Virus record (IMG/VR): IMGVR_UViG_3300025133_000076
Direction: 5' to 3' (one strand)
Length of the DNA: 20,000 nucleotides
Source: an uncultured virus (IMG/VR IMGVR_UViG_3300025133_000076)
Lineage: Duplodnaviria > Heunggongvirae > Uroviricota > Caudoviricetes
Shown here: positions 5,450 to 17,867 of the stretch, piece by piece
Layout of the letters: every line of letters starts with the position of its first letter
Position numbering within the stretch: position 1 is the first letter of the stretch
The notes under the pieces: model-generated
Database searches by the model: none
What the model was told of the DNA's origin: nothing
Seen by the model: the letters and a program-made list of their open reading frames with translations, nothing else
Translations under genes and position numbers: made by a program

Positions 5450-5469
5450 ATAAAATTTTATCACCCACT

Positions 5470-5489
5470 TTCTGCACCAGCTATCGTAC
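5470..5489 (+). promoter_or_regulatory. Repeated intergenic motif copy 1 (TTTCTGCACCAGCTATCGTA), putative phage promoter/operator
   Basis: Identical to 8216-8235 and 17/20 identical to 17410-17429. All three copies are intergenic and in the same orientation. Confidence 0.6.
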
Positions 5490-5512
5490 TATGAACACAG
5501 TGGAGGAAGAAA

Positions 5513-5749
5513 ATGTCTTTGTTTATAAGGGTAGAGATTGCATCCAAGTTGCTTGGAAGCAAAAGTCCAAATGATATTATGTTTATTGCTCTAGATAGGG
5601 TTCATAAGATTCAGAGCACTGGAGGCGAAAGAGGTTGCATTATTTTTCATGGGCAACCAACAGAGAGGACTGTTGTAGATGTAACCGCAGGAGAATTGGT
5701 TGCTAACAACATTGTCGATACTTCATTTTTTGCTATAGAATCTAAATAG
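5513..5749 (+). CDS. Hypothetical protein
   Basis: 78-aa ORF with a GGAGG Shine-Dalgarno just upstream. Confidence 0.7.
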   Translation: MSLFIRVEIASKLLGSKSPNDIMFIALDRVHKIQSTGGERGCIIFHGQPTERTVVDVTAGELVANNIVDTSFFAIESK

Positions 5750-5779
5750 CTAACTGCCACCTACGTTAATTAAACGTAT

Positions 5780-5855
5780 GGGCCGTTAGCTCAACAGGCA
5801 GAGCAAAAGACTTTTAATCTTTAGGTTCTGGGTTCAAGTCCCAGGCGGCTCACCA
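5780..5855 (+). tRNA. tRNA-Lys (TTT)
   Basis: Acceptor GGGCCGT/GCGGCTC, anticodon arm AAAGA-CTTTTAA-TCTTT, T-loop GGTTCAAGTCC, encoded CCA; 76 nt. Confidence 0.95.
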
Positions 5856-5862
5856 TTATTAT

Positions 5863-5940
5863 AGGGCTATAGCTCAATCAGGTTAGAGCAACTGCCTCAT
5901 AAGCAGTAGGTTCTCGGTTCAAGTCCGAGTAGCCCTACCA
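5863..5940 (+). tRNA. tRNA with CAT anticodon (elongator Met or lysidine-modified Ile2; not initiator)
   Basis: Acceptor AGGGCTA/TAGCCCT, anticodon arm ACTGC-CTCATAA-GCAGT, T-loop GGTTCAAGTCC, encoded CCA. Lacks the initiator GGG/CCC anticodon stem and the 1-72 mismatch. Confidence 0.92.
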
Positions 5941-5954
5941 TTTAACGATATAAG

Positions 5955-6240
5955 TGTTGTCGCTCAACTCTTATAAGAAGGAGCGGAATGTTGGAGTTAC
6001 TTTAGATCATTTTGGTTGGGTGATTTAAAGTGGGCGGGTTTCAACAAGTGCGGTAAAGATAGTATTTGTTACATAAAGCAAGTACAATATTAGGGCTCCT
6101 AATGTGACACCCCCTTTGTAATAAAGGGGTTTTAATATAGGAAAAAGCTCCGGTCATGTAATAGGTGTGTCACTCCCTATTATTTAGGCTTATTATTTAA
6201 GTCAGATGAAAGCTGGCCTTACCGGAGGCCAGTTAGTAAT
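5955..6240 (+). ncRNA. Candidate structured non-coding RNA (multi-stem, putative pseudoknots), family unknown; boundaries approximate
   Basis: At least 8 stems with G-U pairs on the + strand, plus two loop-to-upstream 7-bp complementarities. Lies directly downstream of a tRNA, in a stretch with no credible CDS. Confidence 0.6.
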
Positions 6241-6256
6241 CAAAAGGGTCGGATTT

Positions 6257-6505
6257 ATGGACAACTTTGAGGTTGAAGAATATATCCTTCAAACATTGTC
6301 TGGAATAATTCCCAAAGAATTATGGGACGAGCACAGTGGGAGCGACTCCTCTCCTTTCGACAGACTTAGCGAAGCAGAGGCTAGGGTTGTGAAGAGAAAG
6401 TTTAGAAAGTTAAAAAAAAAAGCTAAAGTAAAAAAGTATAATTCTGCAAAATCTATGTGGTCAAGTATAAATTATTATTTAAAAGGTATCAAAAATGGGC
6501 AGTAA
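6257..6505 (+). CDS. Hypothetical protein (basic C-terminus)
   Basis: Track ORF 6206..6505. Start at ATG 6257 preferred because 6206-6240 lies within the structured RNA. Confidence 0.65.
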   Translation: MDNFEVEEYILQTLSGIIPKELWDEHSGSDSSPFDRLSEAEARVVKRKFRKLKKKAKVKKYNSAKSMWSSINYYLKGIKNGQ

Positions 6506-6686
6506 AGCACAGCGACAAAACCAGCATGTTCAGCGTCTTAATAAAAAAATTAGAAAATTCACAAAGGCTGGCAAATCAACTGCTGGATTAGAAAAAGAAT
6601 TGAATTATATGTTGGGCGAAGAACGGGTAAAGCACAAAACAGGAAGAGAGGCAGACCCTCGGCTCAAAAGATTTAATCACGACTGA
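6495..6686 (+). CDS. Small basic hypothetical protein
   Basis: 63-aa Lys/Arg-rich ORF overlapping the upstream stop. Confidence 0.65.
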   Translation: MGSKAQRQNQHVQRLNKKIRKFTKAGKSTAGLEKELNYMLGEERVKHKTGREADPRLKRFNHD

Positions 6687-6708
6687 TGCAAAGCCCATGA
6701 TAAAACAT

Positions 6709-6784
6709 TCCCCTGTAGCTCAGTTGGTAGAGCAGATGACTGTTAATCATCGGGTCGTTGGTTCAAGTCCAGCCGGGGGAGCCA
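6709..6784 (+). tRNA. tRNA-Asn (GTT)
   Basis: Acceptor TCCCCTG/CGGGGGA, anticodon arm GATGA-CTGTTAA-TCATC, T-loop GGTTCAAGTCC, encoded CCA; 76 nt. Confidence 0.95.
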
Positions 6785-6791
6785 TTTTTAT

Positions 6792-6825
6792 AAGCCATGT
6801 ATCTTTTGGTACATGGCTTTGTTTA
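6792..6825 (+). terminator. Possible intrinsic terminator or processing hairpin after tRNA-Asn
   Basis: 12-bp stem AAGCCATGTATC-TTTT-GGTACATGGCTT followed by TGTTT. Confidence 0.5.
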
Positions 6826-7445: not shown

Positions 7446-7521
7446 GCCATCTTAGCTCAGTCGGTAGAGCAGTTGCTTTGTAAGCATCAGGTCGTCAGTT
7501 CAAGTCTGACAGGTGGCTCCA
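7446..7521 (+). tRNA. tRNA-Thr (TGT)
   Basis: Acceptor GCCATCT/AGGTGGC, anticodon arm GTTGC-TTTGTAA-GCATC (one mismatch), T-arm GTCAG-TTCAAGT-CTGAC, encoded CCA; 76 nt. Confidence 0.92.
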
Positions 7522-8215: not shown

Positions 8216-8235
8216 TTTCTGCACCAGCTATCGTA
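8216..8235 (+). promoter_or_regulatory. Repeated intergenic motif copy 2 (TTTCTGCACCAGCTATCGTA)
   Basis: 20/20 identical to 5470-5489; upstream of a long run of coupled small genes. Confidence 0.6.
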
Positions 8236-14397: not shown

Positions 14398-14411
14398 ACA
14401 TTGGAGATTTG

Positions 14412-15257
14412 ATGGAATCGTATGACGTTATAAGCAGAGCTATTAAAGATAACCCAATCCTGCCTCATTCTAAACAGCTTAATTTAGTTAAGCTATGGCA
14501 GAATACAGCAAATAAAGATGCTCTAGATAAATTAGTGCTTTCTAATATGAGGGCCGTAACAAAGGAGGCTTCAAGAATAAAGAGTAAAAATCATTATCTA
14601 TCATATGATGATTTAATTCAAGAAGGCATTGCTGGGCTATTAAAGGCCGCAGATATGTTTGATGTAAAGCAAGAGGTTAACTTCTTAACGTATGCAATGT
14701 GGTGGATCAAAGCCAACATGAGAAAGCATGTTATGAGTTATAGGTCAGTGGTTAAGATGGGCACTACGAGAGATGATAGAGTTTTATTTTCCAATTTGTC
14801 AAAGGCACTACGAGAGGCCGAAGAGTTGGGCGTAAATGGTGAAATGAAGTTCGATTTTGTTGCGAAACACCTTGGGGTAAGTAAGGCTTCCGTAAGCCAA
14901 ATGGCAATTACCCTAAAAGGCTTTGACACAAGGCTTGATGCTCCCATAAGAAATGAGGAAGGGAATGAGGTACGAAGAATTAACTTGATTGAAGATGAAT
15001 CATTTTCAGAAGATATATTTTTAGAAGCTAATGAAAATGAATTATTATCGTCTATCCTAAGGACCATTACAAATGATCTTCCGAATGACGAAAAGACTAT
15101 AATAGAAAATCGGTTTTTATCAGAAGACACAAAGACCTTAAGGGAGCTGGCAAAAGAAATGAAAATCTCAAGAGAATGGGTCAGAAAGTTAGAGTTAAAA
15201 GCTTTGGGTCGAATTAAAAAAAGACTTGCTACTCAATATGGTATAAGAGAGGCTTAA
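14412..15257 (+). CDS. RNA polymerase sigma factor, sigma70 family, RpoH/sigma32-like
   Basis: Region 2 DLIQEGIAGLLKAADMFD..FLTYAMWWIKA. RpoH-box-like VVKMGTTRDDRVLFSNL. Region 4 TLRELAKEMKISREWVRKLE. Confidence 0.93.
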   Translation: MESYDVISRAIKDNPILPHSKQLNLVKLWQNTANKDALDKLVLSNMRAVTKEASRIKSKNHYLSYDDLIQEGIAGLLKAADMFDVKQEVNFLTYAMWWIKANMRKHVMSYRSVVKMGTTRDDRVLFSNLSKALREAEELGVNGEMKFDFVAKHLGVSKASVSQMAITLKGFDTRLDAPIRNEEGNEVRRINLIEDESFSEDIFLEANENELLSSILRTITNDLPNDEKTIIENRFLSEDTKTLRELAKEMKISREWVRKLELKALGRIKKRLATQYGIREA

Positions 15258-17409: not shown

Positions 17410-17429
17410 TTTTTGCACCAACTATTGTA
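17410..17429 (+). promoter_or_regulatory. Repeated intergenic motif copy 3 (TTTTTGCACCAACTATTGTA) upstream of tmRNA
   Basis: 17/20 identical to the copies at 5470 and 8216. Confidence 0.55.
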
Positions 17430-17473: not shown

Positions 17474-17867
17474 GGGGGCGCAATGGTTTCGACAGGGTAA
17501 TGAGAGCGGATAGTGCAAGCGGTCTACGGTAACGAATGACCTAAAGATTGTTACAAAACTTATAATTGCCAATAACAATTATTACTACAACAACGTCGCT
17601 TTAGCGGCTTAGTTGTCTGGGCTTCTAGCGGCCTTGTCACCCAATGTTAGATAACAGGTAGAGATCCTGCGAAAATAAAAAATCAAGATGGATACCTCAT
17701 CAGTATCGGTGAAAGTCCGACTGTAGGGATGAGTGGACTTCTGAGGCTACATAGGGAGAGGGTTTCTGTGGCTACCTTGCTGATTTGGGAATAAATCAGA
17801 CAAGCTTGTGAATGACTTGAAGAATGAGTTGCTTTGGACGCGGGTTCGACTCCCGCCGCCTCCACCA
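17474..17867 (+). ncRNA. ssrA: tmRNA (transfer-messenger RNA)
   Basis: 5' GGGGGCG..GGTTTCGAC and 3' GCGGGTTCGACTCCCGC-CGCCTCC-ACCA with a G3-U alanine pair. Tag frame 17568-17612 encodes ANNNYYYNNVALAA*. Confidence 0.96.

What the first reader, a model, noticed from the sequence alone, without database searches (positions are those of the whole stretch)
5955..6240. Unannotated, highly structured ~290-nt RNA with two putative pseudoknots embedded in the tRNA cluster
Seen stems: CGCTC 5961-5965/GAGCG 5981-5985; TGTTGGAG 5989-5996/TTTCAACA 6039-6046 enclosing the 14-bp 5999-6012/6018-6031; 6062-6070/6077-6085; 6088-6094/6098-6104; CCCCTTT 6111-6117/AAAGGGG 6123-6129; TAATAGG 6159-6165/CCTATTA 6176-6182; 6187-6192/6198-6203; 6211-6220/6225-6234. 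The loop of the 6159-6182 hairpin (GTGTCAC 6167-6173) is the exact complement of GTGACAC 6104-6110. The apex of the last hairpin (ACCGGAG 6221-6227) is complementary to CTCCGGT 6148-6154. Many G-U pairs favour a + strand RNA. It fills a long gap in otherwise tightly packed DNA. Known: large ornate ncRNAs such as GOLLD and ROOL occur next to tRNAs in phages, but I cannot match this one to them, nor to RNase P, SRP or group I intron signatures. Inference: a possibly undescribed phage ncRNA co-transcribed and processed with the tRNAs.
Basis: partly seen in the sequence, partly recalled or inferred. Interest (0 to 1): 0.85.

Follow-up and report, generated by a model that had tools for sequence, protein, structure and literature searches.

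The report
Conserved 100-base RNA behind phage tRNA
Only the first third of the flagged stretch is a conserved, uncatalogued folded RNA sitting right behind a tRNA gene of an uncultured marine giant phage; the rest is an ordinary terminator and the leader of a small inserted gene, and what the RNA does is still unknown.

Summary
The + strand folds better than shuffles (z -4.35), the - strand does not (z -1.68).

The 290 bases are not one RNA. Two other marine phage lineages keep only about 100 nt (window 5949-6045). It sits 7-8 nt behind the same tRNA(CAU) and runs straight into a 63-aa basic-protein gene.

In three distinct versions, 95 of 96 pair cells are paired. 11 of 32 pairs changed on both sides, against 0-3 in slid controls. 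Four unpaired blocks are invariant: hairpin loop UCGCU, linker AGAAGGAGCGGAA, apical UUUGGUUGG and bulge GCGGG.

No Rfam family matches any of the three versions. It is not tRNA-like.

Window 6050-6494 is lineage-specific. It holds two small hairpins, an intrinsic terminator (6111-6133), a structured leader and a real 82-aa gene.

The two proposed pseudoknots lie in this non-conserved part and are no more than chance (5 complementary 7-mers against 3.3 +/- 2.4).

Best reading: a new small structured RNA of the phage tRNA operon, comparable to the T4 RNAs RNAC and RNAD. Its function is inferred, not shown.

The parts
5469..5488 (+). Promoter-like 20-nt motif TTTCTGCACCAGCTATCGTA. It is the likely start of the transcript that carries ORF 5513-5749, tRNA-Lys, tRNA(CAU) and the element.
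   Evidence: The same 20-mer occurs at 8216, and an 85% copy at 17410, about 45 nt before the tmRNA gene. A related motif lies upstream of the homologous ORF in G001 and L155. Its function as a promoter is inferred.
5780..5940 (+). tRNA-Lys(UUU) 5780-5855 and tRNA(CAU) 5863-5940, both with encoded CCA.
   Evidence: ARAGORN and Rfam tRNA model. The tRNA(CAU) is 100% identical in G001.
5949..5975 (+). Hairpin H1 of the conserved element. It has 10-11 bp (5949-5954/5970-5975 and 5956-5959/5965-5968) and an invariant pentaloop UCGCU (5960-5964).
   Evidence: All 10 pairs are paired in 3 of 3 sequences; 2 pairs changed on both sides and 2 on one side.
5976..5989 (+). Invariant purine-rich single-stranded linker AGAAGGAGCGGAA(U/A). 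It carries a perfect Shine-Dalgarno-like AAGGAG (5978-5983). AUG at 5988 and UUG at 5991 follow. GAGCGG (5981-5986) is complementary to the H1 loop region UCGCUC.
   Evidence: Alignments A2, A3 and A5; complement search. The short reading frame that follows is not conserved: MLELL* here, 10-11 codons in relatives, and the differences are non-synonymous and compensated in the 3' arm (read).
5990..6045 (+). Long two-part helix. Lower stem 5990-5996/6039-6045 (7 bp). Upper stem 5997-6012/6018-6033 (15-16 bp). Invariant 3' bulge GCGGG (6034-6038). Invariant apex UU[UGGUU]GG (loop 6013-6017).
   Evidence: 22 pairs; 9 of them changed on both sides; 65 of 66 cells are paired (helices 2 and 3). G-U pairs and the fold energy favour the + strand: -30.8 against -15.4 kcal/mol.
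6062..6105 (+). Two small hairpins found only in this lineage: 6062-6070/6077-6085 and 6087-6094/6098-6105.
   Evidence: Minimum-energy fold, z -3.26 on + and -0.94 on -. Absent from G001 and L155. In a ~94% identical contig of run X5, the three stem substitutions (6064, 6069, 6079) all keep pairing through G-U or G-C (my reading).
6111..6133 (+). Intrinsic-terminator-like hairpin CCCCTTTG-TAA-TAAAGGGG followed by TTTT.
   Evidence: Terminator scan: 8 pairs, 4 of them G-C, T-run. The only weak Rfam alignment here (SSRC8_2, E 5.9) matches just this hairpin.
6134..6256 (+). Leader or promoter region of ORF 6257. It holds hairpins 6159-6165/6176-6182, 6187-6192/6198-6203 and 6211-6220/6225-6234, and AAAGGG before the ATG.
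   Evidence: Fold z -2.84 on +, -0.83 on -. A weak sigma-70-like match lies at 6167-6196. Absent from G001 and L155.
6257..6505 (+). Lineage-specific 82-aa gene, inserted together with 6050-6256 relative to G001 and L155.
   Evidence: Two relatives of exactly 82 aa, 90% and 76% identical. 9 of 15 listed differences in the X5 contig fall on third codon positions (my count). No relative in 5 related phage records at E <= 0.01 (best 0.011), and none in IMG/VR.
6495..6686 (+). Small basic 63-aa protein gene. In G001 and L155 it starts 25-30 nt behind the element.
   Evidence: 72 clusters in metagenomes, with no Pfam, PHROG or PDB match.

Best explanation
The flagged stretch is composite.

(1) The conserved element (shown). 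Window 5949-6045 is a conserved, + strand structured RNA of about 100 nt. It has a hairpin with loop UCGCU, then a single-stranded Shine-Dalgarno-like linker, then a 22-23 bp helix with a 5-nt bulge and an invariant apex. It lies 7-8 nt behind tRNA(CAU).

(2) How it is made (inferred). It is transcribed with the upstream ORF and the two tRNAs from the promoter-like motif at 5469. tRNA 3' processing then releases it as a trailer-derived small RNA.
- In this phage the RNA would end at the intrinsic terminator at 6133, giving roughly 190 nt (5941-6133).
- In the two relatives it stays attached as the 5' leader of the small basic-protein mRNA.

(3) How it acts (inferred). It acts through its invariant unpaired blocks, as a binding platform for a protein or for the ribosome's anti-Shine-Dalgarno end. 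This resembles the stable RNAs of the T4 tRNA cluster, whose role is also unknown.
- The H1 loop may dock on one of two G[A/G]GCGG copies, in the linker or in the bulge.

(4) The remainder. 6134-6256 is the leader of an inserted 82-aa gene and is not part of the RNA.

The confidence given covers the whole statement. For parts (1) and (4) alone I would say about 0.9; for the inferred biogenesis and mode of action in (2) and (3), about 0.35.
For: Structure.
- 3 distinct versions: the window; G001, which is identical to L154; and L155, which is identical to L156.
- 95 of 96 pair cells are paired. 11 of 32 pairs changed on both sides, against 0-3 when the partners are slid by 1-3 columns. 0-1 of 500 shuffles reach the observed values (two-sequence version).
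- Strand: the + fold is -30.8 kcal/mol and the - fold -15.4.

Position and boundaries.
- The order ORF, tRNA-Lys, tRNA(CAU), element is the same in all versions.
- Similarity ends at about 6049 and resumes at the basic-protein start. This bounds the element and shows that 6050-6494 is extra.

Not a known family.
- No Rfam match at E <= 10 over the element in any version.
- No INPHARED blastn match.
- ARAGORN finds nothing at an 80% threshold.

Not coding.
- The mini-frame differs in length and sequence between versions, and its changes are matched in the non-coding 3' arm.

Single copy per genome.

Terminator at 6111-6133.

Weak hint of RNA.
- A metatranscriptome run (X13) holds a 153-nt contig identical to 5932-6079.
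- The tool warns that DNA can be present in such libraries.

Loop docking.
- UCGCUC has exactly two conserved complements in all three versions. At least two complements arise in 4.1% of 5000 shuffles.

Analogy.
Against: - Only three distinct sequences, all from one marine phage clade. They are related, so the shuffle control overstates significance.
- The invariant blocks cannot be tested by covariation.
- No read-level RNA data are available, so transcription, processing and RNA ends are not shown.
- In 2 of 3 lineages no terminator follows. The element could there be simply a 5' untranslated region.
- A contig in RNA run X24 carries an identical tRNA(CAU) with different flanks. More distant relatives (L031, L032) have the basic protein without the element. 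So the element is dispensable to both neighbours.
- The strong Shine-Dalgarno-like motif with a start codon 5-8 nt behind it is not explained by a pure scaffold role.
- No complementary target for the loops was found in the window above chance.
Confidence: 0.55

Rival explanations
1. A cis-acting processive antiterminator, working like HK022 put RNA. The nascent two-hairpin RNA binds the elongating polymerase. The polymerase can then read through the terminator at 6111-6133, the hairpin at 6792-6819, and Rho-sensitive untranslated tRNA stretches.
For: - Two stem-loops with invariant bulge and loops and fast-covarying stems.
- It lies in a same-strand operon with terminator-like hairpins downstream, in the window (6111, 6792) and in L154 (1968-2005).
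- No further copy of the phage promoter-like motif lies between 5469 and 8216. tRNA-Asn, tRNA-Thr and several ORFs may therefore depend on read-through.
- The element is kept whatever gene follows it.
Against: - No blastn match in INPHARED; whether that collection holds HK022 was not checked.
- The element is longer (97 nt) and has a 14-nt single-stranded linker that put lacks.
- The Shine-Dalgarno-like block is unexplained.
- Other promoter types may serve the downstream genes (a weak sigma-70-like site lies at 6167-6196).
Confidence: 0.13
2. A cis-acting junction module between tRNA and mRNA. The long helix is a cleavage site for a double-strand-specific RNase (RNase III type). The 5' hairpin and the Shine-Dalgarno-like purine tract protect the downstream mRNA once the tRNA has been cut off. 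Alternatively, it is a translational operator for the small basic protein.
For: - In 2 of 3 lineages the element ends 25-30 nt before the basic-protein start.
- The helix of 22-23 bp with an asymmetric bulge has the size and shape of phage RNase III sites (recalled from the T7 literature, not checked here).
- Purine-rich Shine-Dalgarno-like stabilisers in 5' leaders are known (STAB-SD and the SP82 leader; recalled, not checked).
Against: - In the window, 445 nt and an intrinsic terminator separate the element from that gene. Yet the element is intact with compensated stems.
- Invariant loops are not needed for RNase III.
- The downstream ribosome-binding site is not paired with the element (sequence reading).
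- The basic protein occurs without the element in L031 and L032.
Confidence: 0.2
3. One reading: one ornate RNA of about 290 nt (5955-6240), held together by two pseudoknots (6104-6110 with 6167-6173, and 6148-6154 with 6221-6227).
For: - All stems and both 7-mer complements exist.
- The whole stretch folds better than shuffles on the + strand.
- A ~94% identical contig in run X5 keeps the 3' part, and no substitution is listed inside the four 7-mers. At that identity this says little.
Against: - Relatives lack everything after about 6049.
- An intrinsic terminator lies between the partners of both pseudoknots.
- Complementary 7-mers are at chance level (131 of 500 shuffles).
- 6134-6256 directly precedes a real gene.
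Confidence: 0.04
4. No function: the similarity is just slow divergence of an intergenic spacer, and the hairpins are incidental.
For: There are few sequences, all from related phages.
Against: - The stems differ at 11 of 32 pairs on both sides while 95 of 96 cells stay paired.
- Unpaired blocks are 100% identical although neighbouring proteins are only about 73% identical.
- The slid-partner control gives 0-3 such pairs.
Confidence: 0.05

Closest known systems
Bacteriophage T4 RNAC and RNAD (species 1 and 2 stable RNAs of the tRNA region)
   Same: Small non-coding RNAs encoded inside a phage tRNA gene cluster on the tRNA strand. Their roles are unknown (PMC3014915 section 29 and PMC9697503 section 16, passages read).
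   Different: - No blastn match in INPHARED; whether that collection holds T4-type phages was not checked, and no structural comparison was made.
- Expression and processing are shown for T4 but not here.
- In two lineages this element is continuous with a downstream mRNA.
HK022 put RNA (polymerase-utilisation antiterminator)
   Same: A phage-encoded cis RNA of two stem-loops with functionally important bulges, placed upstream of terminators (PMC9378689, introduction and discussion passages read).
   Different: - About 70 nt with adjacent stems there, against 97 nt with a 14-nt Shine-Dalgarno-like linker here.
- No blastn match in INPHARED.
- Binding to RNA polymerase and antitermination are untested.
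3' external transcribed spacer of the E. coli glyW-cysT-leuZ tRNA operon (a small-RNA sponge)
   Same: A functional RNA carved from the trailer of a tRNA precursor and ending at the operon terminator. The window would do the same if its RNA ends at 6133. This rests on my own knowledge; for papers on it I saw only the listing.
   Different: That RNA acts by base-pairing with Hfq-dependent small RNAs. No target was found here, and the relatives have no terminator.
   Different: Those RNAs are several hundred nucleotides long with many helices. No Rfam family, these included, matched at its gathering score or at E <= 10. The conserved element is only about 100 nt.

Membership tests
Any Rfam 15 family (4227 models, including GOLLD, ROOL, RNase P, SRP, 6S, T-box, CRISPR repeats and ribozymes) | Covariance-model score at or above the family's gathering score | tested here: not met
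   - Window: only 4 tRNAs and the tmRNA pass.
- 5850-6350 at E <= 10: only the tRNA, its antisense artefact, and an 8.8-bit hit on the terminator hairpin.
- L155 and G001 versions: nothing over the element.
tRNA / tRNA-like RNA | Cloverleaf with acceptor and T arm detectable by ARAGORN or the Rfam tRNA model | tested here: not met
   ARAGORN finds 0 genes at an 80% threshold in 5930-6270, and only implausible calls at 60%. No Rfam tRNA hit.
T4 RNAC/RNAD-type stable RNA of a phage tRNA cluster | Encoded within a phage tRNA gene cluster on the same strand | tested here: met
   It lies between tRNA(CAU) 5863-5940 and tRNA-Asn 6709-6784, all on the + strand. The same holds in the relatives.
T4 RNAC/RNAD-type stable RNA of a phage tRNA cluster | Accumulates as a discrete processed RNA | not testable with these tools
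   Only assembled contigs of RNA runs were available. One 153-nt contig identical to 5932-6079 is in run X13, but DNA carry-over is not excluded.
T4 RNAC/RNAD-type stable RNA of a phage tRNA cluster | Sequence homology to the T4 RNAs | tested here: not met
   blastn (word 11) of 5941-6257 against 50,697 phage records: no match. Whether T4-type records are among them was not checked.
HK022 put-type antiterminator RNA | Two stem-loops of about 70 nt with sequence similarity to putL or putR | tested here: not met
   Two stem-loops are present, but the element is 97 nt with a 14-nt linker. No blastn match in the phage collection.
HK022 put-type antiterminator RNA | Suppresses downstream terminators in cis by binding RNA polymerase | not testable with these tools
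   Context only: terminator-like hairpins lie downstream on the same strand.
Intrinsic (Rho-independent) terminator (for 6111-6133) | G+C-rich hairpin directly followed by a T-run on the transcribed strand | tested here: met
   8-bp stem with 4 G-C pairs, 3-nt loop, then TTTT.
Pseudoknotted RNA as proposed (6104-6110/6167-6173 and 6148-6154/6221-6227) | Long-range pairings that exceed chance and are conserved or covary | tested here: not met
   The complements exist, but 131 of 500 shuffles give as many 7-mer complements. The whole region is absent from the relatives.

The most novel reading that the evidence does not exclude
The ~100-nt module is a protein-independent RNA that acts on the transcription or translation machinery. 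One version is a put-like antiterminator that makes polymerase read through the terminators and untranslated tRNA stretches of a giant-phage tRNA operon. Another is a pseudoknot bearing a Shine-Dalgarno sequence that captures 30S subunits. Either would be the first such element outside lambdoid phages, and it would be tied to phage tRNA expression.
Probability: 0.12. Interest if true: 0.75.

Novelty: new variant of a known kind. Interest (0 to 1): 0.42.

Why it matters
Phage tRNA clusters have long been known to hold small stable RNAs of unknown role. T4 RNAC and RNAD are the classic case.

This is a compact example with clear covariation. Its boundaries are sharply defined by a natural insertion, and it has four invariant unpaired motifs to mutate. 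That makes it a tractable case for asking what such RNAs do.

It also shows that a gap full of hairpins next to tRNAs can be a mosaic of a real RNA element, a terminator and a gene leader. That matters for how such findings are scored.

Its known range is narrow: three versions in one marine phage clade. General importance is unproven.

Tried and rejected
Searching for more homologues.
- IMG/VR pattern scans with two or three conserved blocks gave 21, 120+ and 1 loci. Model R1 accepted only the G001 copy among the 100 + 52 sources searched. One 15.9-bit hit in L032 (E 0.15) was discarded.
- A genome contigs pattern scan gave 9 loci, none accepted by R1.
- Locus scans with neighbouring proteins found few or no relatives. 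Searches found none. One search found 4 loci without the tRNA region. One search found 3 loci, of which only G001 has the element.
- INPHARED blastn and tblastn: no match. The DNA ligase has at most 38% identity to any cultured phage.
- No whole genome is held for this window.
The contigs behind the 72 basic-protein relatives and the 76%-identical ORF relative could not be fetched.

Function leads.
- The small basic protein has no Pfam, PHROG, PDB or Atlas lead.
- Complements of the invariant loop and linker in the window are at chance.
- From memory, I considered resemblances to a lambda or rrn boxA, a T-box bulge, a type I-C CRISPR repeat and a type I toxin leader peptide. I dropped them. 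No Rfam hit supports any of them, the motifs match only in 4-5 bases, and the mini-frame has an early stop in the window.
- A long-range helix 6149-6155/6247-6253 from the minimum-energy fold is half broken in the X5 relative. 6250 C>T keeps the pair and 6251 G>T breaks it.

RNA runs (contigs only).
- Run X13 shows no cover of the flanking ORFs 5450-5778 and 6108-6389.
- Its contig stops at 6079.
- Holes and contig ends prove nothing.

Earlier notes of this scan, by place and by sequence: nothing.

Full report
**Context**

The window is part of an uncultured marine phage with a large genome.
- All called genes in the region lie on the + strand.
- It carries tRNA-Lys (5780-5855), tRNA(CAU) (5863-5940), tRNA-Asn (6709-6784), tRNA-Thr (7446-7521) and a tmRNA (17474-17867).
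- It also encodes a DNA ligase, a sigma-70-family protein, a thymidine kinase and a radical SAM protein.
- The window's own 82-aa protein is recorded on a contig of up to 205 kb.
- The closest IMG/VR relative is a 223-kb contig estimated 67% complete.
- No cultured phage is close. There is no blastn match, and the ligase is at most 38% identical.
- Public runs that hold the stretch are marine or seawater metagenomes.

**Observation**

- The gap between the tRNA(CAU) end and the next credible start (ATG 6257) is 316 nt.
- The + strand of 5941-6257 folds to -96.6 kcal/mol against -74.6 +/- 5.1 for shuffles (z -4.35, 0 of 100). The - strand gives z -1.68.
- In parts, the + strand z-scores are -3.62 (5941-6052), -3.26 (6053-6140) and -2.84 (6134-6256).
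- The - strand of the last two parts is at -0.94 and -0.83.
- So the hairpins are real, and they favour a + strand RNA.

**What relatives show**

A related phage (G001; locus L005, identical in metagenome locus L154) has the same order: small ORF, tRNA-Lys, tRNA(CAU).
- Behind its 100%-identical tRNA(CAU) it has only about 105 nt similar to window 5941-6049.
- About 30 nt later comes the start of the homologue of window ORF 6495-6686.

A three-block pattern scan of JGI metagenomes found 3 loci.
- One is identical to G001.
- Two are identical to each other and form a third version (L155, L156) with the same architecture.

The window therefore has about 445 extra bases (6050-6494) between the element and the basic-protein gene.

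**The conserved element (5949-6045)**

RNAalifold on the window plus G001 predicted 32 pairs, 11 of them changed on both sides.

Counts on the model-guided alignment of the three versions:

| Measure | Value |
|---|---|
| Pair cells forming standard pairs | 95 of 96 |
| Pairs changed on both sides | 11 of 32 |
| Shuffles reaching that count | 1 of 500 |
| Same count with partners slid 1-3 columns | 0-3 |
| Cells paired in slid controls | 34-55% |
| Pairs changed on both sides, by helix | H1: 2 of 10; lower stem: 1 of 7; upper stem: 8 of 15 |

The three sequences are related. The shuffle control therefore overstates significance, and the slid control is the fairer one.

By contrast, four unpaired blocks are invariant:
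- the H1 loop with its closing pairs, GUGUUGUCGCUCAA
- the linker AGAAGGAGCGGAA
- the apex UUUGGUUGG
- the bulge with its flank, GGGCGGGU

Neighbouring proteins are only about 73% identical. So these blocks are under selection.

The element is single-copy in the window and in G001. It was not found in four other related but incomplete records.

**Not a known family, not coding, not tRNA-like**

- Rfam 15 gives nothing over the element at E <= 10 in any of the three versions.
- ARAGORN finds nothing at an 80% threshold.
- The linker holds a perfect AAGGAG, followed by AUG (window, L155) or AAG (G001) and then UUG in all three versions.
- The frame reads MLELL-stop in the window and 10-11 hydrophobic codons in the others.
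- Its differences between G001 and L155 are non-synonymous and are matched in the non-coding 3' arm. Selection is therefore on pairing and not on a peptide.
- The start codons lie inside the lower stem.

**A possible tertiary contact**

- UCGCUC (the H1 loop plus one base) is complementary to GAGCGG in the linker and to GGGCGG in the bulge, in all three versions.
- Two or more such complements arise in 4.1% of 5000 shuffles.
- These blocks never vary, so covariation cannot test the contact.
It overlaps the covariation-supported H1 by one base. It would have to form as a pseudoknot or as an alternative fold.

**The lineage-specific part (6050-6494)**

It contains:
- two small hairpins (6062-6085 and 6087-6105)
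- a terminator-like hairpin with a T-run at 6111-6133
- a structured 123-nt leader
- an 82-aa ORF (6257-6505) that overlaps the basic-protein start

The ORF is a real gene.
- Two relatives of exactly 82 aa exist, 90% and 76% identical. This also supports the start at 6257 over the upstream ATG at 6206.
- DNA run X5 holds a 765-nt contig, about 94% identical, spanning 5978-6745. Of the differences listed for this contig, 9 of 15 in the 82-aa ORF and 9 of 12 in the basic-protein gene fall on third codon positions. This is my count from the table, and 60 further rows were not shown.

The same contig has three substitutions in the stem of hairpin 6062-6085.
- All three keep pairing (A-U to G-U, U-G to C-G, G-C to G-U).
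- The contig also loses one base on each side of the terminator stem.
- At this identity the evidence is weak.

Both proposed pseudoknots lie here, on either side of the terminator. Exact 7-mer complements are no more frequent than in shuffles (5 against 3.28 +/- 2.36; 131 of 500).

**Transcription context**

- A 20-nt motif at 5469 recurs at 8216 and, at 85% identity, about 45 nt before the tmRNA gene.
- Related sequences precede the homologous ORF in G001 and L155.
- No copy lies between 5489 and 8216.
- This suggests that the ORF, the two tRNAs and the element share a transcript. That is inference.
- One metatranscriptome run (X13) holds a 153-nt contig identical to 5932-6079. The tool warns that DNA may be present in such libraries and that contigs show no ends. 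I count it as a weak hint only.

**Mechanism**

Shown: there is a conserved, + strand, two-domain RNA structure with invariant unpaired motifs, directly behind a tRNA.

Inferred: it is made as the 3' trailer of the tRNA precursor.
- In this phage it would end at the terminator, giving about 190 nt.
- In relatives it remains the leader of the basic-protein mRNA.
- It acts by binding a partner through its invariant motifs.

I rank the readings as follows.
1. Trailer-derived stable RNA or binding platform. This reading comes first. The element stays intact when it is separated from the downstream gene and is followed by a terminator.
2. A tRNA-mRNA junction, processing or stability module (0.20).
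3. A put-like antiterminator (0.13).

These cannot be separated without experiments. The Shine-Dalgarno-like block is the least explained feature under every reading.

**Comparison and novelty**

- The closest analogues by place and kind are T4 RNAC and RNAD (PMC3014915 and PMC9697503, passages read).
- The closest analogue by architecture and context is HK022 put RNA (PMC9378689, passages read).
- The closest analogue by biogenesis is the leuZ 3' trailer sponge (my own knowledge; only the listing was seen).
- Membership in any of these fails on sequence or cannot be tested.
- Earlier notes of this scan list several other uncatalogued folded RNAs in phage and giant-virus tRNA clusters. I did not check them. 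They suggest the theme is recurrent, which lowers the surprise.

**Verdict**

This is a real but small and narrowly distributed new RNA motif. The ornate 290-nt pseudoknotted RNA is not supported.

Noticed in passing
window 17474-17867 (+): Phage-encoded tmRNA (Rfam 116.6 bits) with tag peptide ANNNYYYNNVALAA. A copy of the promoter-like motif lies about 45 nt upstream of it.
   Followed up: partly
window 5469-5488, 8216-8235, 17410-17429 (+): Repeated 20-nt intergenic motif TTTCTGCACCAGCTATCGTA: two identical copies and one 85% copy. Related versions occur upstream of the homologous ORF in G001 and L155. It is a candidate phage-specific promoter; the phage has its own sigma-70-family gene at 14409-15257.
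   Followed up: partly
window 5863-5940; L031 739-816 and 836-1471: In a distant relative, the homologous tRNA(CAU) (65 of 78 bases identical) is followed directly by a PP-loop ATPase (PF01171, the family that holds TilS). The tRNA called Met may therefore be a lysidine-type tRNA-Ile2. No such gene lies in the 20-kb window.
   Followed up: partly
window 6495-6686 (+): A 63-aa, very basic protein with 72 clusters in marine metagenomes, some on contigs of about 300 kb. It has no Pfam, PHROG, PDB or Atlas lead, and it sits among tRNA genes in several lineages.
   Followed up: partly
window 6792-6819 (+); L154 1968-2005 (+): A long hairpin (12 and 15 bp) with a T-rich tail follows tRNA-Asn in both phages, with same-strand genes continuing behind it. 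It could be a terminator or a processing hairpin inside the operon.
   Followed up: no
window 5858-5944 (run X24): A metatranscriptome contig carries an identical tRNA(CAU) with different flanks on both sides. The tRNA therefore circulates without the element.
   Followed up: no
window 5988-6005; L155 734-769: A mini reading frame lies behind a perfect Shine-Dalgarno-like motif inside the element. It is 5 codons in the window and 10-11 hydrophobic codons in relatives, and it is not conserved as a peptide.
   Followed up: yes
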